IMG/VR virus record: IMGVR_UViG_3300042261_000976
Span: 4,627 to 68,626 of that record
Source of the DNA: a virus
Reading direction: 5' to 3' (one strand)
DNA: 64,000 bases
Every line of letters begins with the position of its first letter. The first letter of the stretch is position 1. The notes beneath the pieces are model-generated. The model was not told the origin of the DNA and made no database searches. It saw only the letters and a list, made by a program, of their open reading frames with translations. A program made the translations under genes and the position numbers. This document shows positions 13,754 to 63,259 of this stretch, piece after piece.

Positions 13754-14062
13754 ATGGACGGTTGTATGCAAGGCGGAATTAATGTAAGAATTATAGATAG
13801 TGATCCTTTATCTATAATAAATGATTTTGCCAGTAACGTAAATATTGTATATAATGGAGAAAAGAAGAATCAAAATCAACTCCTAAATGAATTATATTAT
13901 AAAGATTATAACAAATATAATAGAAATACAGGACCTTCAATGCCTCCACAAAATCCATTATTAAAAAAGCATGTCGATATTCCAGATGAGCCAAAACCAA
14001 TTGAACCAGGACAAGTTGATCCTGCCGCATTTTTTGGAAGTAGTTTGAAAGGGTTGTTTTAA
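13754..14062 (+). CDS. hypothetical small protein
   Basis: track ORF. Confidence 0.3.
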   Translation: MDGCMQGGINVRIIDSDPLSIINDFASNVNIVYNGEKKNQNQLLNELYYKDYNKYNRNTGPSMPPQNPLLKKHVDIPDEPKPIEPGQVDPAAFFGSSLKGLF

Positions 14063-15219
14063 TAATTACACACAAAAGGAGTACTATATAATCCAGTTTT
14101 TTTATCCTTTTTATAATTTTTGCTATAGTTGTAGTAATTAGGTATAACATGAAATGAATCTGTGTATGGCAAATTGAAATTTTTTGGATCGTTCGTTGGT
14201 GATACTAGAGTAACTATGAGTTTTTCGTGTGGATATTTTTTCCCAATATTTTTATACATCAACATATTATTTTTATTGGCATAATTTTCTAATTGGACTC
14301 TAGCAGCACCATCTGATGAATAAATCCTATCCATATAAACTCTACCATCGTCCAACCTCCATATTAATGCCCTTGCTAATAATTTATTTTTCTTAATATA
14401 TGTGGCCATTGCTATTTGATCTGGATATAGATCATAGAATTTTACTCTATATTGGGTGGAATCATATCTCATACAAGAATTATTGAGTGTTCCTCCTCCT
14501 TTTTTATATCTTTTTTCTTGATACCAATAGGATATATCATCTCCTGTAACAACTCTCAATTCTCCGCCTTTTTGATTGGCTTCATATTCAGCTTTATATT
14601 TATTTGAAAATTCTTCTATTTCAGGATCTTTAAGATCTGGATTTAATTTTCTAAGGAGTCTTCCAACTTTAGTTTGTTGACGAAATTTTTCAATATCTTC
14701 ATATGATTTATCAGCCAAAGCGACTTTTTTTGCTGGAACAAAAGATATATTATCTGCACTGTCTTTAACAATATCGAAATATGAAACGTCGAAGTATTCT
14801 CCCTTTTTTTTGAATTTTATCTCTTTTAGAATTTTTAAAAAATCTTTTGTAGCTTGAAATTTATATAGTTCACCAGCATTTAATTTTCTTTCAAGTTCAT
14901 CTTCTTTGGCTGCTTTTTCCGCGTTCTGTTTTTTCCATTCTTCTAATTTTTCGTCAGTAAATATTTCAACATTTTTTAATTGATATTTAGACAACTTTAC
15001 TTTCCCCTTTTTAATATAATATGATTTAGGAGCATCTTCAACTTCAAATACTATTACTTCTTTTTTTATGTCTATTACAGTGCCAATTTTACCGTCTAAC
15101 TTTACTTTATCTGCGCCATATCTAGAAAGGTCATATTTACCATTGAATAAGACTTTTGATCCTATTTCAAAATCTCCTATTTTTGCCTCATTTATAAAAT
15201 TTGAATAATCTAAAAACAT
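14059..15219 (-). CDS. paralog family member 2 (GGGTLNNSCMRY domain)
   Basis: FRQQTKVGRLLRKLNP..VTGDDISYWY..GGGTLNNSCMR..LLARALIWRLDDGRVYMDRIYS. Confidence 0.6.
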   Translation of the reverse strand: MFLDYSNFINEAKIGDFEIGSKVLFNGKYDLSRYGADKVKLDGKIGTVIDIKKEVIVFEVEDAPKSYYIKKGKVKLSKYQLKNVEIFTDEKLEEWKKQNAEKAAKEDELERKLNAGELYKFQATKDFLKILKEIKFKKKGEYFDVSYFDIVKDSADNISFVPAKKVALADKSYEDIEKFRQQTKVGRLLRKLNPDLKDPEIEEFSNKYKAEYEANQKGGELRVVTGDDISYWYQEKRYKKGGGTLNNSCMRYDSTQYRVKFYDLYPDQIAMATYIKKNKLLARALIWRLDDGRVYMDRIYSSDGAARVQLENYANKNNMLMYKNIGKKYPHEKLIVTLVSPTNDPKNFNLPYTDSFHVIPNYYNYSKNYKKDKKTGLYSTPFVCNY

Positions 15220-15273: not shown

Positions 15274-16455
15274 TCAATTTGATAATTGTAAACCTGGAAT
15301 CGCCTGATTTGAAAGAACTAAATCACCATCTTTTCTATAAACATGTATAAATGTATCAAAATACGGACGATAAGCATTATCTTTTGTTTTTAATGTAACT
15401 ACCATTTTGCCTTTACCTTGTTGTGTATCTCTTCTTGTTATCATATTAAATTTTTTAGCATAATTTTCCAATTGAACTGATGCTTCTGCTTTAACTGAAT
15501 ATATTCTATCCATATAAACTCTACCATCATCCAATCTCCAAATTAATGCCCTTCCCCACAATCTATCATTTTTAATATAAACTGCCAGTGCGACTTTATC
15601 TGGAAATTTATCGTAAAATTTAACTTGTGTTTGTGCAAATTCTCCTCTCATACAAGAATTATTAAGAGAACCACCACCTTTTTGATAATGTTTTTCATGA
15701 TACCAATAAGATATATCTTTTCCAGTTACAACTTGTATGTCTGGAACAGTGAATAAAGTTTCAACATACGCTCTAAAATTAGCAACATATTCTTCTATTT
15801 CTTGGTCATTTAATTTAGGATTTAATTTCCTAAGAATTCTACCAACTCTAGTTTCTTGTCTGAATTTTTCAGGATCTATTGGTTTTTCTGGTTTCTTTCC
15901 TTTTTCTGTATTTATTTTCTTAGATGGAATGAAACTTACCATATCTGTTTTTCCACTAACTACATCAAAGAAAGAAGAATCAAAATATTCACCAATTTTT
16001 TTGAATTTTATATCTTTCAAAACAAGATTAAAATCTCTTGTTGCTTTGAATTTATATACTTCACCGGCTTTAATTTTTCTTTGTAATTCTTCGTATTCTG
16101 GAGTAAGAACTATAAAATCTTTGAAATAATAATTTTCTACTTTTATTTCTGTAAGTTCATAATCTATTTGAATATCTACCTTAAAACCATTTCTTGTGAA
16201 TAAATCTATTTTATATTTTATTGGTTCATCTAAAGTGAAAGTTATAAAAGTAGATTTACCATAAGAACGTTGTGATTTCTCCTTAGTTATTTCTTTTACT
16301 GTTCCAGTTTTATCTAATAAATTTACTTGTTGTCCATACTTCGGTTCATTATAATAAGACATTCCTGGTCCTTTAAATACAACCTTTGAACCTACTTGAA
16401 AATCAAATATTTTAGAAGCAACTTCATTCAATAGGTCATTAAATCCATAAATCAT
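15274..16455 (-). CDS. paralog family member 3 (GGGSLNNSCMRG domain)
   Basis: same C-terminal domain and similar N-terminal half as 14059..15219. Confidence 0.6.
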   Translation of the reverse strand: MIYGFNDLLNEVASKIFDFQVGSKVVFKGPGMSYYNEPKYGQQVNLLDKTGTVKEITKEKSQRSYGKSTFITFTLDEPIKYKIDLFTRNGFKVDIQIDYELTEIKVENYYFKDFIVLTPEYEELQRKIKAGEVYKFKATRDFNLVLKDIKFKKIGEYFDSSFFDVVSGKTDMVSFIPSKKINTEKGKKPEKPIDPEKFRQETRVGRILRKLNPKLNDQEIEEYVANFRAYVETLFTVPDIQVVTGKDISYWYHEKHYQKGGGSLNNSCMRGEFAQTQVKFYDKFPDKVALAVYIKNDRLWGRALIWRLDDGRVYMDRIYSVKAEASVQLENYAKKFNMITRRDTQQGKGKMVVTLKTKDNAYRPYFDTFIHVYRKDGDLVLSNQAIPGLQLSN

Positions 16456-21431: not shown

Positions 21432-23277
21432 TGATTTAGGGACTACGTTCTCGGCAGTTGCAGTTATGGAAAATGGAGTACCTACAATTATTGTAAATAG
21501 TGAAGGAGAAAGAACAACTCCTTCTGTTGTCGCTTTCCTTGATAAAGGAGAGCGAAAAATTGGTAATCCAGCTCGTAGACAGGCTGTTACAAATAGTAAT
21601 AAAACTGTTCATTCCATTAAGAGGTTTATGGGAGAACATTATGATAGACTAACAAATGAAATTGATCGTTATGCTTATAAGGTAGTTAAGAAACATGATA
21701 TGCCTTATATTGAAATTGATAAAAAGGAATACTCTCCACAGGAAATTAGTGCAGTTATTCTTCAAAAGATGAAAAAAACTGCCGAAGACTATCTTGGTCA
21801 AAAAGTTGAAAGTGCTGTTATTACTGTTCCAGCATGGTTTAATAACGATCAACGTCAAGCTACAAAGGAAGCAGGTGAAATTGCTGGATTTAAAGTAGAA
21901 CGTATTATTAATGAACCTACTGCTGCAGCTTTGGCTTATGGGCTTGATAAGTTGAAGAAAGATATGAAGATTGTGGTTTTCGACTTTGGAGGTGGAACAT
22001 TTGACGTTTCTGTTCTTGATTCGGGTGATGGTGTATTTGAGGTTAAATCTACATGTGGAGATGTCCACTTAGGAGGTAACGATGTTGACGACGTTATCGT
22101 TGACTGGTTAGTAGATGAATTCAAGAAAGACAACGGAATAGATTTGAGAAAAGATCCAATGGCTTATCAAAGATTGAAAGATGCAGCTGAAAAGGCAAAG
22201 ATTGAACTTTCTTCTAATACAGAAACAGAAATAAATCTTCCTTATATCACTGCCATAGATGGCATGCCAAAGCATATGGTATCTAAATTGAGTATAAGTA
22301 AATTCGAACAAATTGCTGACAGTGTATTTAAGAGACTTATTCCAATTAGTGAAAAAGCTCTTAGGGATTCAGGAATAGAAAGAGATAAAATTGATGAGGT
22401 TATTCTTGTTGGTGGTTCAACTCGTATTCCAGCAGTTCAGAAAATAGTAAAAAGTATTTTTGGAAAAGAACCTAATAGAAGTATTAATCCTGACGAAGCA
22501 GTTGCTTGTGGAGCAGCAATTCAAGGTGGAATTATTAGTGGTGAAGTAACAGATATTCTTCTTCTTGATGTTACTCCTCTTTCACTCGGTATTGAAACAA
22601 TGGGTGGAGTAATGACAAGATTAGTAGAAGCTAATACTACAATTCCAACAGAGAAATCACAAATATTCTCTACCGCTTCTGATAATCAGCCATCTGTAGA
22701 AATTCATGTTCTTCAGGGTGAAAGACCAATGGCGAGTCAGAATAAGACTTTAGGTAGGTTTCATTTGGATGGTATTCCACCAGCTATGAGAGGTATTCCA
22801 CAAATTGAAGTAAAATTTGACATCAACGCTAATGGTATTCTTGAAGTTATAGCTATTGATAAAGCAACAGGAAAGAAACAGAACATTAGAATTGAGAATT
22901 CTTCAACTCTTCCTAAAGAAGAAATCGAGAGAATGAAGAATGAGGCAAAAGAAAATGAGGAAAACGATAGAAAAGAAAAGGAAAAGATAGATAAGCTCAA
23001 CCAAGCAGATTCGATGATTTTCCAGACCGAAAAACAAATCAAAGATTTCGGAGACAAATTGACAAACGAAGATAAGAACAATTTGAACGAATCTCTTGAT
23101 AAATTGAGAACAGCACACAAGGGTCAAAATTTAACAGATATTGACAATTGTATGAAAGAATTAAATGAAAAATGGAATTTGATTTCAACTCGAATGTATC
23201 AACAAACATCTTCACAACAACAGGGACCAAAAGAAGAACAACCTGTAGAAGATGTAGAATTTCAAGAGGTTAAGTAA
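21432..23277 (+). CDS. dnaK: DnaK (Hsp70) exon 2, bacterial DnaK type
   Basis: [54 protein letters not shown]-terminal EDVEFQEVK; near-collinear with E. coli DnaK. Confidence 0.9.
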
Positions 23278-23310
23278 AAAAAAGAGGGACTTAAGTCCCT
23301 CTTTTTTTTA
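23278..23310 (+). terminator. intrinsic terminator hairpin agagggac-ttaa-gtccctct + T8
   Basis: perfect palindrome immediately after dnaK stop; also serves the convergent minus gene. Confidence 0.55.
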
Positions 23311-24999
23311 TGTCCCATATGATATATCTGATGCTCCTCCAATATTCCACGTTGGACCTTTATAATCTTCATCTACCATAATTTTTCCTTCTCCACTACA
23401 ATCGTCACATTCTCCTCCCGTGCTTTTTCTGCCCCAACCTTTACAAGAAGGACATTCTATTTGTTTATAATGTTTTATTTTAGCTTTAGATTTTGGTTTT
23501 ACAACATCGTCAAATTGTTTATAAAAATCGTTTTCAATATTTGATTTTGGTTTTGATTTTGTTTTACTGGCTAAAAATGTACTTATTTCTTGTTCCTTTG
23601 ATTTTGATGATTTTACATTTTTAGATAGTTTTTCATCACTTGCACTCAAAGTGCCTGGTTCTACATACAATCTTAAAGTTTTCTCATCTTCATAATCTCC
23701 TCCGTGAAAAACTATCATCCATTTACCGTCTGTTTTTCTAACACCATCAAACTGTCCGATTTTACCATTATACTTACTACCTGGAAGATTATATTTAACG
23801 CGTTGTCCTTGTCGAAATGGTGAAGTAACTTTTTTACCAACAGGTTCCCATTTTCCTCCGCTATAATCACCATAATCTGAAGCTTTCTTAAAATCCCACC
23901 AATTATCATCATATGATTTATCGGTATCTACATATGGAGATATTTTCTTCTTTGGTTTCTCTACAACACCTAAACCTTGACAATGCTTACACGGTACTGG
24001 TAAAAGTAAGTCGTTCACATGATGTTGTGATGTTAAAGTATAACCTCTACCGTTACAATATTCACATTCATCGTATTTCGACGGATCTGGATTTCTTTTT
24101 TTCTTATTGTCGCCGTATGGCGATTTTTTCTTTTTTAATTGTGTTTCATTTGGTATAACTCCTTCGCCTCCACATTCATCACAAGGATCATCGTAAGTCG
24201 ACATAACAACACCGCTTCCCCCACATTCTTCGCATTCTGATCCGTCATTTAATTCTCCTTCTCCATCACATTCATCACAAGGATCTTCAGTTTCGATTTC
24301 TAAGGTTCCTGCCCCGTGGCAAATTGGACATTCTATGTCATCTTTATCTTCGTCTTCGTTTTCTTCTTCTTTGTCTAGTTTAAGAGCACGTAACATTTCT
24401 TCCTTTGAAATTTGTGGTAAATCTCGTCTCGCTCCGAAATCTGATATTTTCACCTTAAACGGTTCCGTTTGTTTTGGTTTTTCTTTTGGTTTAGTTGTAC
24501 CAACAACATCAACTATGCCTACTTTTCTAGCTATACTCCTTTCTCTCTCATCTTCTTCCCATGATTCTTCACCATAAGGATCTAAATCCTTCATAGCTTT
24601 TTCTTTCATATTATGTAGAATATAAGCACATTTATCTATCATGAAATCAAGAGTTTCCTTATGTTGTTCTCTTTTTGTTACTTTTATTCTTCTTTCATAA
24701 GTTTCTTGATTAAGATTATCTTTCGCTGTAAGTATATAAGTTATAACATCATCTACATCTACAATCTTCTTTATTGTAAATGTAAAATATTTCTCTACAC
24801 ACTTAGCTTCTTTCTCGTTACTATCTACTTCAAAATCATCATGTTTTAACATTCTTATTTCCTCTTCAGAGAATAAGTCAGCTGGACGTTTTTCTATTCT
24901 TTCGCGCTCTTCATCGTCGCGATGGTATTTTAGTTTACCAGAACTAAGTTTTCTTTTCAATTCTTCGTTTATCTTATTATATCTTTGAATATAATCCAT
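23308..24999 (-). CDS. DnaJ-type zinc-finger (7x CxxCxGxG) protein, no J domain; contains DPYGEESW
   Basis: CPICHGAG, CDECDGEG, CEECGGSG, CDECGGEG, CEYCNGRG, CKHCQGLG, CPSCKGWG, CDDCSGEG. Confidence 0.6.
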   Translation of the reverse strand: MDYIQRYNKINEELKRKLSSGKLKYHRDDEERERIEKRPADLFSEEEIRMLKHDDFEVDSNEKEAKCVEKYFTFTIKKIVDVDDVITYILTAKDNLNQETYERRIKVTKREQHKETLDFMIDKCAYILHNMKEKAMKDLDPYGEESWEEDERERSIARKVGIVDVVGTTKPKEKPKQTEPFKVKISDFGARRDLPQISKEEMLRALKLDKEEENEDEDKDDIECPICHGAGTLEIETEDPCDECDGEGELNDGSECEECGGSGVVMSTYDDPCDECGGEGVIPNETQLKKKKSPYGDNKKKRNPDPSKYDECEYCNGRGYTLTSQHHVNDLLLPVPCKHCQGLGVVEKPKKKISPYVDTDKSYDDNWWDFKKASDYGDYSGGKWEPVGKKVTSPFRQGQRVKYNLPGSKYNGKIGQFDGVRKTDGKWMIVFHGGDYEDEKTLRLYVEPGTLSASDEKLSKNVKSSKSKEQEISTFLASKTKSKPKSNIENDFYKQFDDVVKPKSKAKIKHYKQIECPSCKGWGRKSTGGECDDCSGEGKIMVDEDYKGPTWNIGGASDISYGT

Positions 25000-49319: not shown

Positions 49320-49378
49320 TAACTTTAATTATTTTTTATCTTACTTTTTTTATATATAGATAAAAAGTGGATCGAATT

Positions 49379-52312
49379 ATGATTAAATTGTTAGTTATTG
49401 AAGATCACCCAAGTATGATTTCCGGTTTAGAATGTTTATTAAAAGGAGATGTGGAAGTGACATTTTCATCTAATGATATGGATAATGCCTTGAATTTCGA
49501 TCATACTAAATTCGATATAATATTATTAGATTTATTATTACCAGAGACAAACCCTATAAATAATGTTAAGAGATTAAAAGAAATTTATCCAAACCCCATT
49601 GTTATATTTACTTGTGAAGATTCTAATTTATGGAAGAAAAAGATGTTTGATATTGGTGTCATGGGTTATTTAATCAAAACATCTAATAAGGAAAAAATAG
49701 TAACTACTTTACATCAAGTTTTAAAAGAGTTTAAAAGAGATAAAGAATTGCAATATCCAAACTTGAAAATATGTAATCTAGATTTTTTTAATTTTTTAGA
49801 TGATATGTTTTTTGTTTTAGACTTAAAGGGAAACATTATAGAGTATAATACAAGTGTAACAAGAAAACTTAGATATTTAAAAGAAGATTTGATTGGTAAA
49901 AATATACAAAAATTTTTCAATAGTGATGTATCTTCTATTTTTACTGGTGAATATTCTAATAAAAGAATTCCAATTTTAAATTCAGATGGAAATAGTTTAT
50001 TCGTAGAAATACGAAGTTTAAAAATACACGCTAGATGTAGCTTAGAAGATTATTTATTAATAGTAGCGAAAGATATAGAAGCAGAGGAGAAATATAAAAA
50101 TATTTTTGATAATTCTACTCAAGGAATTTTTCAATCTACAATGGATGGGAAGTATATTACAGTAAATCCGGCTTTTGCTCAATTATGTGGATATGAAAGT
50201 CCTGAAGAATTATCTACTAGTGTTAAAAATATTTCAGATCAAATATACGCAAATAAAAGCGATAGAGATCAATTTCTAGATACATTATTAAAATATGGTA
50301 AAGTAAAAAATGCCGAAGGACAAATCAAAAGAAAAGACGGCGATAAAATATGGGTTTCTTGTAGTGCTAAATTAATAAAAAATAAAGACGGAACACCATT
50401 ATACATAGATGGTATAATAGATAATATCACAGATAAAAAAGATACAATAGAAAATTATATTTCTTTATTGAAAGCTATTCCGGATATGATGGTCAGAGTG
50501 AGAAAAGACGGTCTTATTATGGATATAAAACCAGGTGAAGGAACATATTCTGAATTAGGACAATCTACTCATTACATAGGTGGAAATATAGGGAATTTAC
50601 CGTTTGGTGATGTAATAACGACTAAATTTAAAAATATTATAAAAGAGGTTATTGAAAAAGAAGAACCTATTGAATTTTGTTATGCTATTTTTATTAAAGG
50701 AATTGAAAGGAATTATTATTCAAGAACTGTAAAGAATGGTGAAAGTGAAGTTATAGTAATAGTCAGAGAAATAACAGAAGAAATAAATATAAGAAATGAT
50801 TTAACATATTCCAGAGATTATTCTGAAAATATAATCAATACAGCAAATGCCATGATTATAGAATTAGATAATAGTGGCAATATAATCACTTTCAATAAGG
50901 CAGCTGAAGAGGTTACTGGATATAAAAAAGAAGAACTTTTTGGTAAAAATTGGTTCGAAACATTATGTCCCAAAGATAGATTCCCTCATGTGTGGGAAGA
51001 ATTCAATGGATTGATGAAACAAAAAATAGAGGCTAAAGACTTTGAAAATCCAATTCTTACAAAGAGCGGGGAAGAGAGATATATTGTTTGGAAAAACAAT
51101 GAAGTAAAATCTAATAATAAAGTCGTGGGTGTAATATCTTTCGGTCTTGATATAACAGAAATGAAAAAGACATCGGAGGAATTAAAAATAGCCAAGGAAA
51201 AAGCAGAGCAATCAGATAAAATGAAATTAGAATATCTTTCTAACATGAGTCACGATCTTCGTACCCCAATGAATGCTATTATAGGATTTACAGATTTATT
51301 AAGAGCTAATAATCTAACCAAAAACGAAAAACACGATTATATTAATACTATTATAAATAACGGTAAATATTTGATGGCTCTTATAGACGATATTATTGAC
51401 ATTTCTAAAATTGACGCTGGAAGTCTTAAAGTAGAAAATAGAGATTTTGAAATAAATAAACTCATGGAAGAACTTCGTCTTTCATATATAAAACAAATTA
51501 AAGATAAAAATATAGAAATTATAATAGATATAGATGTTAATAAAAATATTATAATACAATCTGATAAATATAGACTAAGACAAATTATGGCAAATCTTAT
51601 AGGAAACGCTATAAAATTTACAAACGATGGTTATGTCAAATTCGGATATAAAATACTGAATAATAGAATGTTAGAAATATATGTTGAAGATACAGGTCCA
51701 GGTATAGAGAAACAAAATCAGAAAATAATTTTTGAAAGATTTAAGCAATTAAATGATACCAATAAATATAAAGGAGCTGGACTTGGTTTGTCTATAAGTA
51801 AATCTTTGGTTGAACTATTAGGATTTAAAGAAATAAAATTAGTATCTGAATTTGGTAATGGTAGTAGATTTTATTTTAATGTGCCTTACGATGTGAAAAA
51901 TTTTACTTATATGTCTGATATTAAAGAAAGAAAACATAAGAAAATAAATTTTGCTGGAAAAAATATTCTTTTAGTAGAAGATAATAGAGATAGTAGAACA
52001 ATTATGAAATCTTATCTACAAGATACAAAAGCCAATGTTATAGAAATGAAAGATGGTATTGGTATATTAGATGTTATAAAAGAAAAAGAAATAGATTTAG
52101 TTTTATTGGATATTGGTCTTCCTGGAGGTAAAAATGGTTATGTAATATTAGAAGAAATAAAAAATTATGATAACAGATTACCAGTTATTATAGAATCAGC
52201 TTTAGCTATGCCGGATCAAAAAAATAAGGCATATGATTTAGGATGTGATGATTTTATATCCAAACCTTTCAATAGGGAAGATTTTCTAAACAAAATAGAT
52301 AACTTACTATAA
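49379..52312 (+). CDS. hybrid sensor histidine kinase: REC - 3x PAS - HisKA - HATPase_c - REC
   Basis: start at ATG 49379 (MIKLLVIEDH); ILLDLLLP Asp pocket; MSHDLRTPMNAI H-box; NLIGNAIKFT / DTGPGI / GAGLGLSISK N,G boxes; C-terminal ILLVEDN..LVLLDIGLPG receiver. Confidence 0.8.
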   Translation: MIKLLVIEDHPSMISGLECLLKGDVEVTFSSNDMDNALNFDHTKFDIILLDLLLPETNPINNVKRLKEIYPNPIVIFTCEDSNLWKKKMFDIGVMGYLIKTSNKEKIVTTLHQVLKEFKRDKELQYPNLKICNLDFFNFLDDMFFVLDLKGNIIEYNTSVTRKLRYLKEDLIGKNIQKFFNSDVSSIFTGEYSNKRIPILNSDGNSLFVEIRSLKIHARCSLEDYLLIVAKDIEAEEKYKNIFDNSTQGIFQSTMDGKYITVNPAFAQLCGYESPEELSTSVKNISDQIYANKSDRDQFLDTLLKYGKVKNAEGQIKRKDGDKIWVSCSAKLIKNKDGTPLYIDGIIDNITDKKDTIENYISLLKAIPDMMVRVRKDGLIMDIKPGEGTYSELGQSTHYIGGNIGNLPFGDVITTKFKNIIKEVIEKEEPIEFCYAIFIKGIERNYYSRTVKNGESEVIVIVREITEEINIRNDLTYSRDYSENIINTANAMIIELDNSGNIITFNKAAEEVTGYKKEELFGKNWFETLCPKDRFPHVWEEFNGLMKQKIEAKDFENPILTKSGEERYIVWKNNEVKSNNKVVGVISFGLDITEMKKTSEELKIAKEKAEQSDKMKLEYLSNMSHDLRTPMNAIIGFTDLLRANNLTKNEKHDYINTIINNGKYLMALIDDIIDISKIDAGSLKVENRDFEINKLMEELRLSYIKQIKDKNIEIIIDIDVNKNIIIQSDKYRLRQIMANLIGNAIKFTNDGYVKFGYKILNNRMLEIYVEDTGPGIEKQNQKIIFERFKQLNDTNKYKGAGLGLSISKSLVELLGFKEIKLVSEFGNGSRFYFNVPYDVKNFTYMSDIKERKHKKINFAGKNILLVEDNRDSRTIMKSYLQDTKANVIEMKDGIGILDVIKEKEIDLVLLDIGLPGGKNGYVILEEIKNYDNRLPVIIESALAMPDQKNKAYDLGCDDFISKPFNREDFLNKIDNLL

Positions 52313-57996: not shown

Positions 57997-58962
57997 ATGA
58001 TTAAATTTGATTTACTAATTGATGGAAATTATCTTCTACAAAAATCAGTACATATACTTCACAAAAATAAAATACTAGCTTCTGAATTATACAACGTAAT
58101 AGAAAGAGACTACATTACACTTACAAAATTATATCCCTTCGACAAAATATACTTTATATCTGATAGTTTTAAAAACTGGAGAAAAGAATTTTTCAATGAT
58201 TATAAAGGAACAAGAAAACGCGATGATAAAATAGATTGGGAATTTGTATATAGTGAATTCTCCAAACTAAAAGAATATCTCAAATCGAAAAGGAATTGCA
58301 TTCAATATCAAATTGAAAGTCTTGAAGGCGATGATATAATAGCGTATTTAACTAATACATTGAACAATAAAGGACATTCTGTTTTCATTATGTCTAATGA
58401 TAGTGACTTATTTCAACTAATACACTATGACACAGATAAGAGATATATTAATATGATGTATAACTCTAAAATGACAGATGATAAAATATACATACCACAA
58501 CACTACACTATATTTACGAAATATATTAAAGACACATATGTTGATGATATGTTTGAAGATAACAACGAAATAGAATTCTTAGAATTTCTTAATAATTTTA
58601 CGAGAACAAGAAAAATATCTTATATTGACTCTGAAATGGAACTTTTCCAAAAAATAATGGGACATAATAAAGATAACATAAAGTCTGTTTATATGAGAGG
58701 AGATCGTGGTATTGGAAAGAATGGTATAGATAAGATATATAAAATGTATAAAGATACTTATCCAGAACCAATTGATTTTAATTCTGAAATTTTCAAACAA
58801 AGAATAATAGATCATATAAAACTATATAAAAGATTAAAAGATAGCTCTATGGATGATTCTATGAATGAGAGATTGAAAAGGAATATGAAACTTGTCAAAT
58901 TGGATAAAGATTCTATGCCTGAATATCTTTATAAAAATATGGTAAAGGAGATTAAACTATGA
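57997..58962 (+). CDS. rnh: T4-type RNase H / 5'-3' flap exonuclease (FEN family)
   Basis: LLIDGNYLLQKS; ISDS..WRKEFFNDYKGTRK; GDDIIAYL; SNDSDLFQL collinear with T4 rnh motifs. Confidence 0.75.
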   Translation: MIKFDLLIDGNYLLQKSVHILHKNKILASELYNVIERDYITLTKLYPFDKIYFISDSFKNWRKEFFNDYKGTRKRDDKIDWEFVYSEFSKLKEYLKSKRNCIQYQIESLEGDDIIAYLTNTLNNKGHSVFIMSNDSDLFQLIHYDTDKRYINMMYNSKMTDDKIYIPQHYTIFTKYIKDTYVDDMFEDNNEIEFLEFLNNFTRTRKISYIDSEMELFQKIMGHNKDNIKSVYMRGDRGIGKNGIDKIYKMYKDTYPEPIDFNSEIFKQRIIDHIKLYKRLKDSSMDDSMNERLKRNMKLVKLDKDSMPEYLYKNMVKEIKL

Positions 58963-59378
58963 CTCTTAAAGAATGGATAAAAAAAGTAGTATATGGTATA
59001 GAGCCTGTGGTTGACATACCAAACATCGAACCTATTGTTCAAGGAAATGTTAGAAGATATGTGATTCCAGTTGGCGGAATGACAAGAAAGGAAGCAGAAC
59101 GCCAAATAGTGGAGTTGATGAACACATACAACGATGATGTTAAATGGGACGAAAACAACGGAGAATTAAATATAAATGGAAATACACAAATTCCATTTCA
59201 AAAGGATTATTGGTTTCCTCAAGAAAATTGGTCAAAAACATATAAGAAATTTGTGAAATCTTTTACACCAGAACAGCAAAAGATGATGGAAGAATCTAGA
59301 TTAATTTATAATAGGTGTGGACCACATCACCCAAGAAGAGTATTTACTATACCAATAGGCAAGAAAAAAGAGGACTAA
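58959..59378 (+). CDS. hypothetical protein
   Basis: ATGA-coupled to rnh. Confidence 0.4.
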   Translation: MTLKEWIKKVVYGIEPVVDIPNIEPIVQGNVRRYVIPVGGMTRKEAERQIVELMNTYNDDVKWDENNGELNINGNTQIPFQKDYWFPQENWSKTYKKFVKSFTPEQQKMMEESRLIYNRCGPHHPRRVFTIPIGKKKED

Positions 59379-59392
59379 GTCCTCTTTTTTAT
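59366..59392 (+). terminator. hairpin gaggac-taa-gtcctc + T6
   Basis: right after stop of 58959..59378. Confidence 0.45.
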
Positions 59393-59724
59393 ATCTGTAT
59401 TTTTTTAATACAAGTTCTTTTATCGTCTGTTATTCTCATCAAATACAATCCCTTAGATAGTTTTTTATTAATAATATCTTCTTTATTTATTTGCTCGTCT
59501 ATGACTTTCATTCCCAATATATCATATATTGTATATTGAATTGGTTCGTCAGTCTTTATAAAAAAATCAACACTATCATTGTTTGATTTTATATATACTT
59601 CAACTTTATAACTTTCAGTCGTAACACTTGTCCATTTTTCATTAGAATTTAATGAAAAAGATCTTTGTATTCCACCCAAAAACATTAAGATAGAAAATAC
59701 AAATAATAATAAAATTCTTTTCAT
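59389..59724 (-). CDS. secreted protein with signal peptide and Por/T9SS C-terminal sorting domain
   Basis: start at MKRILLLFVFSILMFLGG (59724); C-term YTIYDILGMKVIDEQ..KLSKGLYLMRITDDKRTCIKKIQI matches T9SS CTD pattern. Confidence 0.55.
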   Translation of the reverse strand: MKRILLLFVFSILMFLGGIQRSFSLNSNEKWTSVTTESYKVEVYIKSNNDSVDFFIKTDEPIQYTIYDILGMKVIDEQINKEDIINKKLSKGLYLMRITDDKRTCIKKIQI

Positions 59725-59760: not shown

Positions 59761-59792
59761 AACAAAATCCGTCTTTTCAGACGGATTTTGTA
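59761..59792 (-). terminator. hairpin aaatccgtct-tttc-agacggattt
   Basis: 10-bp stem 3' of gene 59798..60316. Confidence 0.45.
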
Positions 59793-59797
59793 ATTTA

Positions 59798-60316
59798 TTA
59801 ATTATCATACTCTTTTGTTCCTTCAAGTCGGCTTTTGAATTCTTCCAGAACTATTTGCAAGCTAGATGTTATATTGCCTAAAATTTCTTTTTCCATTTTA
59901 TCTCTATCTTCTTTAACTTTATCATCAAACATTCTGCTCATTTTTGATGATGTTTTTTCTGGTAGATCAATATCATATCTATATTGGTGATTTACTATAG
60001 TTAATTTACCGCTTTCGAGAATAAGAAATGTGTTTATTTCGTTATTTATAACATATTGTTTGCTAACGATATATTTCTTATATGACATTCCAACATTCAA
60101 ATATCTTATATTATTTTCGTCATTCAAAGATATTTTGAATATGTCAAAAGCTAATTTTTGAACTGGGTTCAAAACATCGTCTTTATCTATTTTTTTCCAG
60201 ATGTTTTGAAATGTTCTGGATAATAGATTTTTTCTTTTTATAGAGGACGTATCGTCCTCCATTCTTACTGGTTTTTCCATCTTAATTTTGTTTAACAGGA
60301 TAAATTCTAACATCAC
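59798..60316 (-). CDS. hypothetical protein
   Basis: track ORF. Confidence 0.45.
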   Translation of the reverse strand: MMLEFILLNKIKMEKPVRMEDDTSSIKRKNLLSRTFQNIWKKIDKDDVLNPVQKLAFDIFKISLNDENNIRYLNVGMSYKKYIVSKQYVINNEINTFLILESGKLTIVNHQYRYDIDLPEKTSSKMSRMFDDKVKEDRDKMEKEILGNITSSLQIVLEEFKSRLEGTKEYDN

Positions 60317-60555: not shown

Positions 60556-61074
60556 TTACTTTTTTGGATTTATCATAACCCAAAGTCTTTTCCCGTCCAT
60601 CTTCGGTAAAGATTCAGCCTTACCATATTCCGATAATGCATCAATGAACTTAAGCAATAAGATATTACCAATATCCGTATAGTTATTCTCTCTTCCAGAG
60701 AAGAAAACTGAAGCCTTTACTTTATCTCCTTCCTGGAGAAAACTAATAGCATGTCTCAACTTAAAGTTGAAGTCGTGATCTCCGGTGTTATAAGTAAATC
60801 TTAATTCTTTAACTTTAACTTTTTTATTATTTTGTTTTTGAAGCTTGTCTTTTTGTTTCCTTTCATATAAAAGTTTACCATAATCAACTATCTTACATAT
60901 AGGAGGTTTTGCATTCGGTGAAATTTCTACTAAATCTAACCCCATTTCATCGGCAACCTTTAATGCCTCTTGGATGCTAACTACTTTAGTTTCAATTCCT
61001 TCACCGACGATTCTTACTTCGTCTACTCCTCTAATCTGTTTGTTGATTCTTTCTGTTGCTTCTTTTTTGTTCAT
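60556..61074 (-). CDS. infC: translation initiation factor IF-3
   Basis: VVSIQEALKVADEMGLDLVEISPNAKPPICKIVDYGKLLYE..VKELRF..GDHDF..KLRHAISFL collinear with bacterial IF-3; no rpmI/rplT downstream. Confidence 0.8.
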   Translation of the reverse strand: MNKKEATERINKQIRGVDEVRIVGEGIETKVVSIQEALKVADEMGLDLVEISPNAKPPICKIVDYGKLLYERKQKDKLQKQNNKKVKVKELRFTYNTGDHDFNFKLRHAISFLQEGDKVKASVFFSGRENNYTDIGNILLLKFIDALSEYGKAESLPKMDGKRLWVMINPKK

Positions 61075-61100: not shown

Positions 61101-61385
61101 TTAATAAAGTCCGTCAACTCTAAAAATTATATCGTCTTCTATATCTTGACGATTAAGACCTTTCCTTGTAGAAACCATTACTCTATAAGGATCGTATTCT
61201 GGATTCTCCCACTCGGGAAGAGGCCATTCTTTTCCATCCATCTCTTTTACTACTATTCTAAATCTCATATCCAAACCAGACATTAACATTATATCTACAA
61301 CTTCTCCTAGAGAATTTGTGATTAAAAAATCAAAACTTGGCGGATCTGTACTAACTGGATATTTGTAAGGATATACATATTTCAT
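61101..61385 (-). CDS. hypothetical protein
   Basis: track ORF. Confidence 0.4.
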   Translation of the reverse strand: MKYVYPYKYPVSTDPPSFDFLITNSLGEVVDIMLMSGLDMRFRIVVKEMDGKEWPLPEWENPEYDPYRVMVSTRKGLNRQDIEDDIIFRVDGLY

Positions 61386-61789
61386 ACTAATTCCGGATTA
61401 TGTTTTAAGAAATTACGTACATAACTTCTAATATTAGCAGCCCCAATATTGTTGAAGGAATGAACCATTATAGTTGGAAATTTTTCATTATTATCCAAAC
61501 AATAATCACACAACCACTTGGCACACTCATACCCTGTTTTTTCTTTATAAGAGAAGTAATCAATAACTCCATCTACAGACCAAAGCATATCATCTCTACC
61601 ATAATGTTCATCAGCTAAATCATGATCGAAAGAAACAAGACTGGGGACTCCTTCATTCTGAATAATCTTGACGAAATTTTCATAATTTCTAACTATGATC
61701 CATTCTAGCTTAGAATATCTTGTGTCTCTCATATAATTGAAGGCATCAAGCGGGACACGTATATCATCAAGAAATAAATTGTAATTCAT
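61382..61789 (-). CDS. hypothetical protein
   Basis: ATGA-coupled. Confidence 0.45.
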   Translation of the reverse strand: MNYNLFLDDIRVPLDAFNYMRDTRYSKLEWIIVRNYENFVKIIQNEGVPSLVSFDHDLADEHYGRDDMLWSVDGVIDYFSYKEKTGYECAKWLCDYCLDNNEKFPTIMVHSFNNIGAANIRSYVRNFLKHNPELV

Positions 61790-62149: not shown

Positions 62150-63259
62150 TTAAAATTCCTTTTTATCAATGCTTTTATAGAAGTTTTCTGAATTATAATA
62201 TTTTTTATATACTTCGATAACCTTGTCTAATGTTATATCGTTAATGTTCTTTTCAATTGACCAACTTTCTGGTTTTATATAAGTTTCCACATTACTATGT
62301 CTATTTATCTCTACTGTATCTATTTTATTCAATATGGAGTTTTTTACTTGATTGAATTTATCTTCTGTTAAAAAAGAAGTATAATCATCTAGAGTTTCGT
62401 CTAATTTGTCCATTAGATTATATACCTTATAATCATCAGTTTCAGTAGATATTATATTAACTCCGGAATAATCACTCAATCTATCTAGAGTACATCTTAT
62501 GTAATAAGACATGCCTGATTTTTTTCTTATATTCTTATATAATGGAGAGTTCAATCCATTTGATAATAGATAATTTATAAAAAACGCTGCCGCCCAGTCG
62601 CTTTCAACTATAGTTGAAAAATATATTATTGAAGACTTATTAAGAAGAGTTTTATATTTCTCTATATATATATTTCCTGTAATGTTGTATTGAACATGGT
62701 AATCGTTCTTAAAATCATTGAATTTTATTTCGTCTTCAAAATCATTATTCTTAGAAACATTTATTATTTTTGAAGGTGTTTTATAGTATTTATTGAAATA
62801 CTCTATACAATCTGATATTTTTATATTTTCCAGATCTTTTTTGTTTCCAATGGAGTTATAGGTATTAAACAATTTTCTATATAGATTCAATAGATGTGAA
62901 GAACTTTGAATATTAAAAATACCAGTGTATTCTTCCAAAAGAGAATCCTTTACTATTTGAAAATCTTTATCTGAAATGTTTATATAAGACAATCTATGTA
63001 AGAATTGTTTTTTGTATTTTGATACATATTTATCAAGTCCATTTAAATAGAATACTATATTTGTTGGAGATGTATAAGCATTCCAAGATAAACCGTTGTT
63101 TTGAAATTCTTCTACGATGTTATCTTCGAAGTTATGACTTATTATGTGTTCTATTAGGTGAGATATTCCATGAGTTCCTTCTACTTCATTTATGGCGGTC
63201 CTATTATATACGACGTAGAATCCTGACAATTCTGTTTGACTCTTTATGTTTAGAATCAT
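62150..63259 (-). CDS. M16 (pitrilysin/insulinase) family peptidase-like protein
   Basis: inverted zinc motif HxxEH (GISHLIEHII) near N-terminus. Confidence 0.55.
   Translation of the reverse strand: MILNIKSQTELSGFYVVYNRTAINEVEGTHGISHLIEHIISHNFEDNIVEEFQNNGLSWNAYTSPTNIVFYLNGLDKYVSKYKKQFLHRLSYINISDKDFQIVKDSLLEEYTGIFNIQSSSHLLNLYRKLFNTYNSIGNKKDLENIKISDCIEYFNKYYKTPSKIINVSKNNDFEDEIKFNDFKNDYHVQYNITGNIYIEKYKTLLNKSSIIYFSTIVESDWAAAFFINYLLSNGLNSPLYKNIRKKSGMSYYIRCTLDRLSDYSGVNIISTETDDYKVYNLMDKLDETLDDYTSFLTEDKFNQVKNSILNKIDTVEINRHSNVETYIKPESWSIEKNINDITLDKVIEVYKKYYNSENFYKSIDKKEF

What the first reader, a model, noticed from the sequence alone, without database searches (positions are those of the whole stretch)
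59389..59724. Por/T9SS C-terminal sorting domain protein: host clue
This small secreted protein has a signal peptide MKRILLLFVFSILMFLGG and a C-terminal beta-sandwich tail (..GLYLMRITDDKRTCIKKIQI) matching the type IX secretion sorting signal. That signal is restricted to Bacteroidota.

The surrounding genes are phage-like, so this points to a Bacteroidota host. It may be a phage-encoded protein displayed on the host surface, for example to block superinfection.
Basis: partly seen in the sequence, partly recalled or inferred. Interest (0 to 1): 0.5.

Follow-up and report, generated by a model that had tools for sequence, protein, structure and literature searches.

The report
Cargo-less T9SS-tagged miniprotein of huge phage
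A giant bacteriophage that infects Bacteroidota carries a small gene whose product is little more than an export signal plus the sorting tag of the host's type IX secretion system, so the tag itself, not any cargo, is probably what acts on the infected cell.

Summary
Window 59389-59724 (minus strand) is a real 111-aa gene. It encodes a Sec signal peptide, a linker of at most about 20 aa, and a complete type A T9SS sorting domain (CTD). TIGR04183 scores 35.2 bits against a cutoff of 23; PF18962 scores 30 against 27. The AlphaFold model superposes on the NucA CTD solved inside the F. johnsoniae SprA-PorV translocon.

The gene is the fastest-evolving member of a conserved block (M16 peptidase, cREC_REC, IF3, orf75, orf172, CTD, exonuclease) in Mahaphage-clade huge phages. 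The window is collinear with the 735-kb phage LR756501 (52 of 68 genes). Twelve family members (111-138 aa) were found, wherever context could be read on huge-phage contigs. It is the only C-terminal CTD in the window and in the whole 735-kb genome.

A Bacteroidota host is backed independently: no Shine-Dalgarno sites, A-rich leaders, Q-rule signal peptides in orthologues, and a published host prediction.

Function is inferred, not shown. The PorV-contact motifs are invariant, while the passenger is short, fast-evolving and half-deleted here. I therefore favour a tag-only protein that occupies host T9SS traffic over surface display. This is a moderately interesting new variant of a known kind.

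The parts
59389..59724 (-). Complete gene for the 111-aa pre-protein (stop codon 59389-59391 included)
   Evidence: ORF and translation. TIGR04183 and PF18962 score above their cutoffs. An identical protein is on record in JGI and Logan assemblies (P0001). Orthologues show dN/dS of 0.22-0.38.
59653..59724 (-). Sec (signal peptidase I type) signal peptide, aa 1 to 18-24. It has an MKR n-region and a 15-residue hydrophobic core (ILLLFVFSILMFLGG). Candidate cleavage sites are after G18 or after S24. There is no lipobox cysteine.
   Evidence: Read directly from the sequence. AlphaFold helix at aa 2-16. All 12 family members have an equivalent N-terminus. It is the only ORF in the window to pass a crude signal-peptide screen. 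No dedicated signal-peptide predictor was available.
59605..59652 (-). Vestigial passenger or linker, aa 25-40 (LNSNEKWTSVTTESYK). The expected PorU-type cleavage zone lies in or just before it.
   Evidence: Low-confidence, mostly unstructured region of the model (pLDDT about 57-72) with one short strand at aa 32-35. It aligns to the C-terminal half of the roughly 40-aa Cys-containing passenger of other members, with a gap of about 26 aa and loss of all cysteines. The cleavage distance rule comes from PMC11969387.
59392..59604 (-). Type A T9SS C-terminal sorting domain, aa 41-111: a seven-stranded beta-sandwich. It carries motif B (Y67-D68..G71), motif D (G92-x-Y94) and motif E (K107/K108).
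   Evidence: HMM matches. Model strands at 41-47, 52-58, 62-67, 73-79, 82-87, 93-99 and 104-110. Foldseek to 8glk_D, 8gl8_D, 7pq4 and 5ag8. Invariant family columns are K46, F54, K57, Y67, G71, L89, G92 and Y94.
59762..59791 (-). Strong terminator-like hairpin (13 bp stem followed by a T-run). It lies between the upstream gene (orf172) and the miniprotein gene.
   Evidence: Terminator scan. RNA fold of -21.2 kcal/mol, z = -8.5.
59364..59390 (.). Bidirectional terminator-like hairpin shared with the convergent gene 58959-59378. It overlaps the miniprotein stop codon.
   Evidence: RNA folds of -13.6 and -14.2 kcal/mol on the two strands, z = -4.5 and -5.5. The simple pattern scan did not list it.
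59798..60316 (-). Context: orf172, the conserved gene of unknown function that always lies immediately upstream of the miniprotein gene.
   Evidence: Syntenic in L002, L008, L009, L011 and L015. Identity is 38-83% among all genomes compared. No Pfam or PHROG family.
60556..61074 (-). Context: phage-encoded translation initiation factor IF-3, an anchor of the conserved block.
   Evidence: Pfam IF3_N and IF3_C. Identity to the orthologues is 78-83%.
57997..58962 (+). Context: 5'-3' exonuclease, the other anchor of the conserved block.
   Evidence: Pfam PF02739 and phrog_107. Identity is 71-76%.

Best explanation
**What it is (high confidence, about 0.85).** This is a genuine gene of a Mahaphage-clade huge phage that infects Bacteroidota. 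Its product is a Sec signal peptide, a linker of at most about 20 residues, and a complete type A T9SS sorting domain, with nothing else. It is the local, reduced member of a family of 111-138-aa proteins found here only on huge-phage contigs. The family keeps a fixed position between IF3/orf172 and the 5'-3' exonuclease.

**How it most likely works (inferred).**
1. In the infected cell the pre-protein is exported by Sec and its signal peptide is removed.
2. The folded CTD docks in the host SprA/Sov-PorV translocon pocket like any type A substrate and is handed to the PorV shuttle (T9SS engagement: about 0.65).
3. There is no passenger domain to deliver. The residues that contact PorV (motifs B, D, E) are among the few invariant or near-invariant positions of the family. 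The passenger is short, fast-evolving and half-deleted in this lineage. I therefore take the tag itself to be the working part.
4. On this reading it is a tag-only pseudo-substrate that occupies translocon, PorV or sortase capacity. It would thereby change what the infected cell places on its surface.
5. The plausible payoff is fewer T9SS-delivered adhesins and receptors, hence exclusion of superinfecting phages, less loss of progeny on debris, or arrest of gliding (this last layer: about 0.3-0.4).
For: **Shown**
- Domain identity sits above curated cutoffs in all 12 members.
- The fold is a 7-strand sandwich covering aa 41-110 and matches the CTDs solved in the translocon.
- Motifs B, D and E are present. 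Y67, G71, G92 and Y94 are invariant and the motif-E basic residue is kept as K or R (motif roles from PMC11969387, and PMC10994853).
- Synteny is conserved in at least 7 distinct phage genomes, including the complete 735-kb LR756501.
- Selection is purifying but relaxed. dN/dS is 0.22-0.38 against 0.05-0.17 for neighbours. The CTD part scores 0.16-0.21 and the passenger part 0.27-0.87.
- The window and P0002 lineage lost about 26 aa of passenger, and the window lost all its cysteines. The ORF and every CTD motif stay intact at only 34-43% identity to the other members.
- It is the only C-terminal CTD in the 64-kb window and in all 735 kb of LR756501. The phage therefore does not use the T9SS to export enzymes.
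- The genome-collection scan of 185,579 bacterial and archaeal species found no family member.
- Strong hairpins bracket the gene on both sides.

**Background**
- Loss of T9SS makes Flavobacterium phage-resistant, and T9SS-secreted adhesins are thought to be phage receptors (PMC9804748).
- Substrates can be trapped in the translocon (PMC10994853).
Against: - No experiment or expression data exist.
- Ten of 12 members keep a roughly 40-aa passenger with a conserved GYxK(I/V)FDCDKW motif and 3 cysteines. That argues the passenger matters in most lineages.
- Any true cargo also needs a conserved CTD, so CTD conservation alone does not separate the decoy reading from the cargo reading.
- The dN/dS values rest on 42-76 codons, with dS near saturation.
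- Whether one small protein could saturate a T9SS is unknown.
- The YPNP signature of strand beta-1, typical of the bacterial CTDs aligned here, is replaced by Y(I/M)KxN. Neither HMM alignment covers that strand.
- CTDs can be species-specific (PMC11285876), and the host and its T9SS are unidentified.
- The same phage clade uses a CTD-like domain internally in another secreted protein. The fold therefore need not always be a sorting signal.
Confidence: 0.4

Rival explanations
1. Mini-cargo display. The protein is a normal T9SS substrate. The CTD is only the address label. After PorU cleavage the short passenger is attached to surface glycan or LPS. That passenger is about 5-24 aa here and about 40 aa with 3 cysteines in most orthologues. 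Once attached, it would mask a receptor or mark the cell as infected.
For: The architecture satisfies every sequence requirement of a type A substrate. Most orthologues keep a conserved passenger motif, GYxK(I/V)FDCDKW, plus cysteines. The fast evolution of the passenger (dN/dS up to 0.87) fits a surface-exposed part in an arms race. Phage-encoded T9SS cargo has been proposed before (PMC7468147).
Against: In the window and P0002 lineage the conserved half of the passenger is deleted and the window has lost all its cysteines. The gene is nevertheless maintained. What remains is predicted to be unstructured. A peptide of 20 residues or fewer is a poor steric mask.
Confidence: 0.25
2. T9SS-independent beta-sandwich. 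The protein is a stand-alone periplasmic or outer-membrane-associated Ig-like domain, comparable to the Bacteroides DUF3244 proteins. It would bind a host envelope component, and the resemblance to sorting domains would reflect only common ancestry.
For: The best Foldseek E-value is to the DUF3244 protein BT_1867 (4g5a), with further hits to 3d33 and 3sd2. These are roughly 86-99-residue Bacteroides proteins of similar size. To my knowledge, Bacteroides lacks a T9SS. LR756501 carries a CTD-like domain in an internal position of another secreted protein, where it presumably cannot act as a C-terminal signal. The YPNP signature of strand beta-1 is lost.
Against: No family member hits the DUF3244 model even at E <= 1, whereas 12 of 12 hit TIGR04183 and PF18962. 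The fit to the NucA CTD (rmsd 1.9 A, 32% identity) is much closer than the fit to DUF3244 (rmsd 3.5-4.9 A, 10-15% identity). The domain ends exactly at the C-terminus, and the PorV-contact motifs B, D and E are conserved.
Confidence: 0.12
3. Secreted peptide signal. The T9SS is used only to carry a short phage-encoded peptide across the outer membrane. There it would act as a diffusible cue between infected cells, an arbitrium-like logic in a diderm host.
For: The architecture is signal peptide, then a short variable peptide, then a cleavable export tag. The passenger differs between phage lineages.
Against: No receptor or regulator candidate was identified. The AimP_fam hit (E = 0.13, 1 of 12 members) is noise. 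The conserved cysteine-containing motif in most members looks like a small folded module rather than a linear pheromone.
Confidence: 0.05
4. Decaying remnant. The gene is what is left of a host cargo gene captured by an ancestral phage. It would now have no function in this lineage.
For: It is the fastest-evolving gene of the block. The passenger is truncated. PHROGs gives no hit.
Against: The ORF is intact in 12 diverged lineages and at a fixed position. dN/dS is clearly below 1, and 0.16-0.21 in the CTD. All fold-defining and PorV-contact residues are retained in the window copy. Its own terminator hairpins are kept. Identical copies occur in independent samples.
Confidence: 0.05

Closest known systems
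[quoted passage not shown]
   Same: N-terminal Sec signal peptide. A C-terminal seven-stranded 3+4 beta-sandwich ending at the last residue. Motifs B (Y..G), D (GxY) and E (basic residue). Scores above the curated HMM cutoffs. Close structural superposition on the NucA CTD as bound in SprA-PorV.
   Different: There is no passenger domain: at most about 20 residues here and about 40 in the other members. The bacterial type A substrates met in this work carry several hundred to more than 1000 residues. The gene is encoded by a phage. The YPNP signature of strand beta-1 is replaced by Y(I/M)KxN. Secretion and cleavage have not been tested.
Phage-encoded T9SS cargo proteins of 'Cryophage' (Bellas et al. 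2020, PMC7468147), and uncultured-phage proteins annotated 'Secretion system C-terminal sorting domain' in BFVD
   Same: These are phage genes that carry a type A T9SS sorting domain and are presumed to hijack the host system. They are hypervariable between phage variants. BFVD holds further examples of 240-423 aa.
   Different: Those carry real passengers: endoglucanase, GH39, PA14 and a protease. This family has none. It is a fixed-position gene of Mahaphage-clade genomes rather than a flexible island gene.
DUF3244 stand-alone Ig-like proteins of Bacteroides (PDB 4g5a, 3d33, 3sd2)
   Same: Small secreted single-domain beta-sandwich proteins of Bacteroidota, of about the same size. They include the best-ranked Foldseek hit.
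   Different: No sequence-profile match. The structural fit is poorer than to true CTDs. Their function is also unknown.
PorU and PorZ, T9SS components that keep an uncleaved CTD
   Same: From my own knowledge of the P. gingivalis literature, these proteins have a CTD that is not removed and that tethers them to PorV or PorQ. Their CTD structures are listed in PMC11285876. They show that a CTD can act as a stable docking module rather than a disposable tag.
   Different: They are large enzymes or scaffolds encoded by the host. No homology exists beyond the CTD. The weak PorU N-terminal hit (NF052318, 20 bits against a cutoff of 40, 1 of 12 members) falls on the signal peptide and is not meaningful.
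Phage superinfection-exclusion envelope proteins (for example T4 Imm/Sp and T5 Llp; own knowledge)
   Same: Small, exported, phage-encoded proteins that act on the infected cell's envelope. The genomic setting among takeover and replication genes (IF3, exonuclease) would fit early expression, but that is inferred.
   Different: No sequence or structural relationship. The mechanism proposed here, occupation of a secretion pathway by a sorting tag, has no described precedent that I could find.

Membership tests
T9SS type A CTD-bearing substrate (TIGR04183 / PF18962) | Sequence-profile match above the curated cutoff | tested here: met
   TIGR04183 scores 35.2 bits against 23. PF18962 scores 30.0 against 27. 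All 12 family members match both models.
T9SS type A CTD-bearing substrate (TIGR04183 / PF18962) | The domain lies at the extreme C-terminus | tested here: met
   The last strand is aa 104-110 of 111, and the Pfam match runs to residue 111.
T9SS type A CTD-bearing substrate (TIGR04183 / PF18962) | N-terminal Sec signal peptide | tested here: met
   MKR followed by a 15-residue hydrophobic core. AlphaFold helix at aa 2-16. The feature is conserved in all 12 members. This was judged from sequence features; no SignalP-type tool was available.
T9SS type A CTD-bearing substrate (TIGR04183 / PF18962) | Seven-stranded 3+4 beta-sandwich fold | tested here: met
   The model has seven strands at aa 41-110 and pLDDT 83-93 over the domain. 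Foldseek hits are 8glk_D (rmsd 1.9 A), 8gl8_D, 7pq4 and 5ag8.
T9SS type A CTD-bearing substrate (TIGR04183 / PF18962) | Motifs B (Tyr..Gly in the beta3-beta4 loop), D (GxY) and E (conserved Lys/Arg near the C-terminus) | tested here: met
   Y67-D68..G71, G92-L-Y94 and K107/K108. The first two are invariant in the family and the third is K or R. Definitions are from PMC11969387 and PMC10994853.
T9SS type A CTD-bearing substrate (TIGR04183 / PF18962) | A passenger (functional) domain N-terminal to the CTD | tested here: not met
   Only aa 19/25-40 lie between the signal peptide and strand 1, and they are predicted to be largely unstructured. No other Pfam, NCBIfam or PHROG domain was found.
T9SS type A CTD-bearing substrate (TIGR04183 / PF18962) | T9SS-dependent export, and CTD removal by the PorU sortase | not testable with these tools
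   This needs expression in wild-type and T9SS-mutant hosts, plus mass spectrometry.
T9SS type A CTD-bearing substrate (TIGR04183 / PF18962) | The producing cell possesses a T9SS | not tested
   The host is inferred only to phylum level. No host genome was identified and no CRISPR-spacer search was possible.
DUF3244 (Bacteroides stand-alone Ig-like proteins) | Sequence-profile match to the Pfam DUF3244 model | tested here: not met
   None of the 12 members hits it at E <= 1. Only a structural resemblance exists (4g5a, TM 0.50-0.55, rmsd 4.3 A).
Mahaphage-clade huge phage genome (context of the gene) | Collinear gene content with a curated complete huge-phage genome | tested here: met
   52 of 68 window genes have LR756501 homologues. 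Nearly all run in one order, across the record's ends (723.6 kb, 735.4 kb, 1, 53 kb). The clade and its Bacteroidetes host prediction come from PMC7162821. No terminase or capsid phylogeny was done here.

The most novel reading that the evidence does not exclude
[quoted passage not shown] It would be a bare sorting tag that plugs or saturates the SprA/Sov-PorV-PorU route. The infected cell would then stop delivering adhesins and other T9SS-dependent receptors to its surface. The result would be superinfection exclusion and arrest of gliding. This would be the first phage effector known to target the T9SS, and a natural template for T9SS inhibitors.
Probability: 0.2. Interest if true: 0.75.

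Novelty: new variant of a known kind. Interest (0 to 1): 0.45.

Why it matters
As a host clue, the finding only confirms what is already published for the largest huge phages, namely Bacteroidota hosts.

The new element is the architecture. This is a conserved, fixed-position family of proteins that consist of a T9SS address label with little or nothing attached. It was found here only on huge-phage contigs. It is the only C-terminally T9SS-tagged product in a 735-kb genome.

If the tag itself is the effector, phages manipulate the T9SS from inside the cell. The T9SS is central to gliding, polymer degradation and virulence in Bacteroidota. The protein would then be a compact natural probe or inhibitor of CTD recognition by PorV and SprA.

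If the protein instead delivers a tiny peptide to the surface, it defines the minimal natural T9SS substrate. Either outcome is directly testable in F. johnsoniae.

Tried and rejected
- **PHROGs.** No family for the miniprotein or for orf172.
- **Megablast of 14 kb against phage records.** Only the histidine-kinase gene matched, at 78% to LR756501. Protein-level search was needed to see the synteny.
- **First word-based protein search.** It returned only the query itself. The exhaustive HMMER search and a profile search were needed to find the family.
- **tblastn of a canonical bacterial CTD against 50,697 phage records.** One hit only. This is a low-sensitivity test.
- **Bacteroidota -7 promoter motif TAnnTTTG.** Not enriched upstream of genes: 4 of 67 against about 5 expected.
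- **Sigma-70-like sites.** No more frequent than in shuffled sequence. No promoter was assigned.
- **Terminator pattern scan.** It missed the downstream hairpin, which was confirmed by folding instead.
- **Weak NCBIfam hits.** PorU N-terminus (20 bits against a cutoff of 40), AimP_fam (E = 0.13) and ChiA-type signal (below cutoff) were all judged noise or signal-peptide and CTD cross-talk.
- **First single-sequence AlphaFold model.** Mediocre, pLDDT 68, and superseded by the alignment-based model.
- **Foldseek against afdb50.** Unavailable. I could not survey how common stand-alone signal-peptide-plus-CTD proteins are in bacteria.
- **Literature search for "CTD only" with type IX secretion.** No papers found.
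- **My own initial error.** I first equated the YPNP signature with "motif B". PMC11969387 places motif B in the beta3-beta4 loop, and I corrected this.
- **Tests not possible here.** CRISPR-spacer and tetranucleotide host assignment.
Full report
**1. The observation**

The coordinates 59389-59724 hold an ORF on the minus strand, with its ATG at 59724 and its TAA stop at 59391-59389.

The proposed test was run and passed:
- NCBIfam TIGR04183 (T9SS type A sorting domain) scores 35.2 bits against a curated cutoff of 23 (E = 9e-9, aa 49-109).
- Pfam PF18962 scores 30.0 bits against a gathering score of 27.

A longer 139-aa gene call exists in public data (P0001). It starts inside the upstream terminator hairpin. 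The MKR... start, with its A-rich leader, is the credible one.

**2. Anatomy of the protein**

An AlphaFold2 model built on a 17-sequence alignment has mean pLDDT 80.7. It shows:
- a helix at aa 2-16, the hydrophobic core of the signal peptide;
- a low-confidence stretch at aa 17-40 with one short strand (aa 32-35);
- seven strands between aa 41 and 110.

Foldseek against the PDB places the model on type A CTDs solved inside the F. johnsoniae translocon and on the RgpB CTD. These are 8glk_D (NucA, rmsd 1.9 A, 32% identity), 8gl8_D (RemZ), and 7pq4 and 5ag8. A family profile finds 8glk_D and 8glj_D by sequence at E of about 7e-6.

The motifs that the literature places at the PorV-contacting end of the domain are all present:
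- motif B, Y67-D68..G71;
- motif D, G92-x-Y94;
- motif E, K107/K108.

Signal-peptidase cleavage is plausible after G18 or S24, from the sequence. Long CTDs are cut 69-82 residues from the C-terminus, which here means around residues 30-43. What would remain as "cargo" is therefore about 5-24 unstructured residues.

**3. Transcription context**

The gene is bracketed by two strong hairpins:
- upstream at 59762-59791, a 13-bp stem followed by a T-run, -21.2 kcal/mol, z = -8.5;
- downstream at 59364-59390, a bidirectional hairpin shared with the convergent gene, -13.6 and -14.2 kcal/mol.

No promoter could be assigned.

**4. What the window is**

The 64-kb window is 26-33% G+C, has no tRNA genes, and encodes the following:
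- DnaK and a DnaJ-like zinc-finger protein;
- a major-vault-protein-like protein;
- IF-3;
- a PAS hybrid histidine kinase;
- an M16 peptidase;
- a TPM-domain protein and helicases.

Of 68 genes, 52 have homologues in the complete 735-kb "uncultured phage" LR756501. Apart from a few best hits elsewhere in that genome, they follow one collinear path that crosses the ends of that record (723.6 kb, 735.4 kb, 1, 53 kb). Identities are typically 50-85%.

LR756501 has the length of the largest genome reported by Al-Shayeb et al. 2020 (735 kb). That paper places all genomes above 634 kb in the Mahaphage clade and predicts that they replicate in Bacteroidetes. The phage context is therefore solid.

**5. 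The gene family**

An exhaustive HMMER search, then a profile search, recovered 12 distinct proteins of 107-139 aa as called, or 111-138 aa with corrected starts. All have a signal peptide, a short passenger and the CTD. All hit TIGR04183 and PF18962, and none hits DUF3244.

Wherever context is available, the gene sits in the same block: M16 peptidase, cREC_REC, IF3, orf75, orf172, CTD gene, (0-2 small ORFs), 5'-3' exonuclease. This holds for L002, the P0004 contigs, LR756501/L008, L009, L011-L014, L015 and L016. One member, P0007, lies next to a Band_7 gene instead.

Other distribution results:
- A pattern scan of one genome for each of 185,579 bacterial and archaeal species found no family member. 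It found only ordinary large cargo proteins in Bacteroidia/Bacteroidota MAGs.
- The scans of IMG/VR and JGI metagenomes added only further copies of the same family and ordinary bacterial cargo proteins.
- With an HMM of bacterial and family CTDs, the miniprotein is the only CTD in the window. It is also the only C-terminal CTD in all 735 kb of LR756501.
- A second CTD-like domain in LR756501 is internal to a 451-aa secreted protein.

**6. Evolution**

The miniprotein is the fastest-evolving gene of its block.
- The window copy is 34-43% identical to the other members. The flanking genes are mostly 63-83% identical, with orf172 at 41-68% and orf75 at 49-65%.
- Among the other lineages it is 51-75% identical, against 63-91% for M16, cREC_REC, IF3 and the exonuclease.

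| Gene or region | dN/dS, Nei-Gojobori, three genome pairs |
|---|---|
| Miniprotein, whole gene | 0.22-0.38 |
| Neighbouring genes | 0.05-0.17 |
| Miniprotein, CTD portion | 0.16-0.21 |
| Miniprotein, passenger portion | 0.27-0.87 |

These samples are small and dS is near saturation.

Ten members carry a passenger of about 40 aa with a conserved GYxK(I/V)FDCDKW motif and three cysteines. The window and P0002 lineage has a gap of about 26 aa there, and the window copy has lost every cysteine. It nevertheless keeps all eight invariant family positions: K46, F54, K57, Y67, G71, L89, G92 and Y94. The constrained, indispensable part is therefore the sorting domain.

**7. Host**

Four lines besides the CTD itself point to Bacteroidota:
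- the published prediction for the clade;
- a Shine-Dalgarno-like motif upstream of only 2 of 67 genes (background 7.5%), together with 60-70% A at positions -19 to -10. I recognise this as the Bacteroidota initiation signature from my own knowledge;
- six orthologues with signal peptides ending in A/S|Q. This is the "Q-rule", described as specific to Bacteroidetes and not shared by the whole FCB group (PMC5837995);
- the only bacterial loci recovered by the genome-collection scan lying in Bacteroidia/Bacteroidota MAGs.

CRISPR-spacer and tetranucleotide assignments were not possible with these tools. I also did not establish that the host has a T9SS.

**8. Mechanism**

Shown: a signal peptide, a complete type A CTD, a negligible passenger, conservation under purifying selection, presence only on phage contigs in the collections searched, and uniqueness within the phage genome.

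Inferred: Sec export, docking of the folded CTD in the SprA/Sov-PorV pocket, and transfer to the PorV shuttle.

From there, two readings compete. I favour the first (about 0.4). In it the tag itself is the effector, a pseudo-substrate that occupies T9SS capacity and so changes the infected cell's surface. My reasons are:
- there is nothing to deliver in this lineage;
- the PorV-contact motifs are among the few invariant or near-invariant positions;
- the phage exports nothing else by this route.

Loss of T9SS function is known to make Flavobacterium resistant to many phages, and T9SS-delivered adhesins are thought to be receptors (PMC9804748). Phenocopying that state from inside the cell would exclude competitors and protect progeny.

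A tiny passenger is displayed or released. The conserved Cys motif in most orthologues speaks for it.

Less likely readings are:
- a T9SS-independent Ig-like envelope protein of the DUF3244 type (about 0.12);
- a secreted peptide signal (about 0.05);
- a decaying remnant (about 0.05).

**9. Comparison with what is known**

Phage-encoded T9SS-tagged proteins have been reported once in the literature I could search. "Cryophage" carries an endoglucanase, a GH39 enzyme and a PA14 protein with type A CTDs, described as a unique occurrence (PMC7468147). BFVD holds a few uncultured-phage proteins of 240-423 aa with the same annotation or fold.

What differs here is the absence of a passenger, the fixed syntenic position in Mahaphage-clade genomes, and the status as the sole C-terminal CTD of a 735-kb genome. 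A search for "CTD only" together with type IX secretion found no paper. I could not survey AlphaFold DB for bacterial stand-alone CTD proteins, so the uniqueness of the architecture is not established.

**10. Verdict**

The functional suggestion needs re-framing around a cargo-less tag. This is a new variant of a known kind, of moderate interest (0.45). There is roughly a 0.2 chance that it is a genuine viral T9SS blocker, which would be considerably more interesting.

Noticed in passing
window 11464, 11752, 17378, 19611, 19691, 24559, 26013, 38994, 39343, 44265, 54635, 57222, 57523 (start of each 24-nt motif); also L008:8126-10657: The 8-residue motif DP(Y/F)GEExW occurs 13 times, spread over about a dozen reading frames on both strands. 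It often lies at the extreme C-terminus or between domains. It recurs many times in an 843-aa ORF of LR756501 and in the small ORFs next to the miniprotein gene. This looks like a clade-wide short linear motif, perhaps a protease site or a docking or packaging tag. I know of no described meaning for it.
   Followed up: partly
window 60556-61074 (-): A full-length phage-encoded translation initiation factor IF-3 (IF3_N and IF3_C). It is 78-83% identical among the related phages and is a fixed anchor of the syntenic block. This is consistent with the translational takeover genes reported for huge phages.
   Followed up: partly
window 30785-33202 (-): An 805-aa protein with major-vault-protein domains (MVP_shoulder 1.6e-27, Vault_3 2.4e-12). 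It is 83% identical to an LR756501 ORF. A vault-like shell protein in a bacteriophage is unusual.
   Followed up: no
window 21466-23277 (+) and 23308-24999 (-): A phage-encoded DnaK (HSP70, 783 bits; 84% identical to the LR756501 copy). Next to it lies a 563-aa protein with DnaJ-type CXXCXGXG zinc fingers but no J-domain hit.
   Followed up: no
window 49367-52312 (+): A 981-aa hybrid sensor kinase: three PAS domains, HisKA, HATPase and a receiver domain. It is the only stretch with nucleotide-level similarity to a deposited phage (78% over 1.4 kb to LR756501). A sensory kinase on a phage genome is notable.
   Followed up: no
window 58959-59378 (+): A 139-aa ORF convergent with the miniprotein gene. 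It matches only a 58-residue piece of the T4 portal protein gp20 (PF07230 positions 207-264; phrog_213). Its best LR756501 hit is a 609-codon open frame at 71966-73792, presumably the real portal. The small ORF is conserved (108-173 aa) in the related phages, so it looks like a maintained partial duplicate of the portal gene.
   Followed up: partly
LR756501 653381-654733 (-) (within L035): A second secreted protein of the 735-kb phage. It has a Q-rule signal peptide (..SYA|Q), then an internal CTD-like domain with a canonical YPNP signature. About 290 C-terminal residues follow, which resemble the Fibrobacter succinogenes major paralogous (FISUMP) domain by eye. The sorting-domain fold is not at the C-terminus here.
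   Followed up: partly
window 14059-15219 (-) and 15274-16455 (-): Two adjacent paralogous genes of 386 and 393 aa. Both have their best match to the single LR756501 ORF at 3-1118 (50% and 45% identity). This indicates a tandem duplication in the window's lineage.
   Followed up: no
window 61382-61789 (-) and 62150-63259 (-): A cREC_REC (cyclic-phosphate-processing receiver) domain protein and an M16-family peptidase-like protein. Both are conserved members of the same block in all related phages. Their function in the phage is unknown.
   Followed up: no
whole window: There are no tRNA genes in 64 kb. A Shine-Dalgarno-like motif lies upstream of only 2 of 67 genes, and positions -19 to -10 are 60-70% A. 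The Bacteroidota -7 promoter motif TAnnTTTG is not enriched. The phage may therefore use its own promoters.
   Followed up: partly
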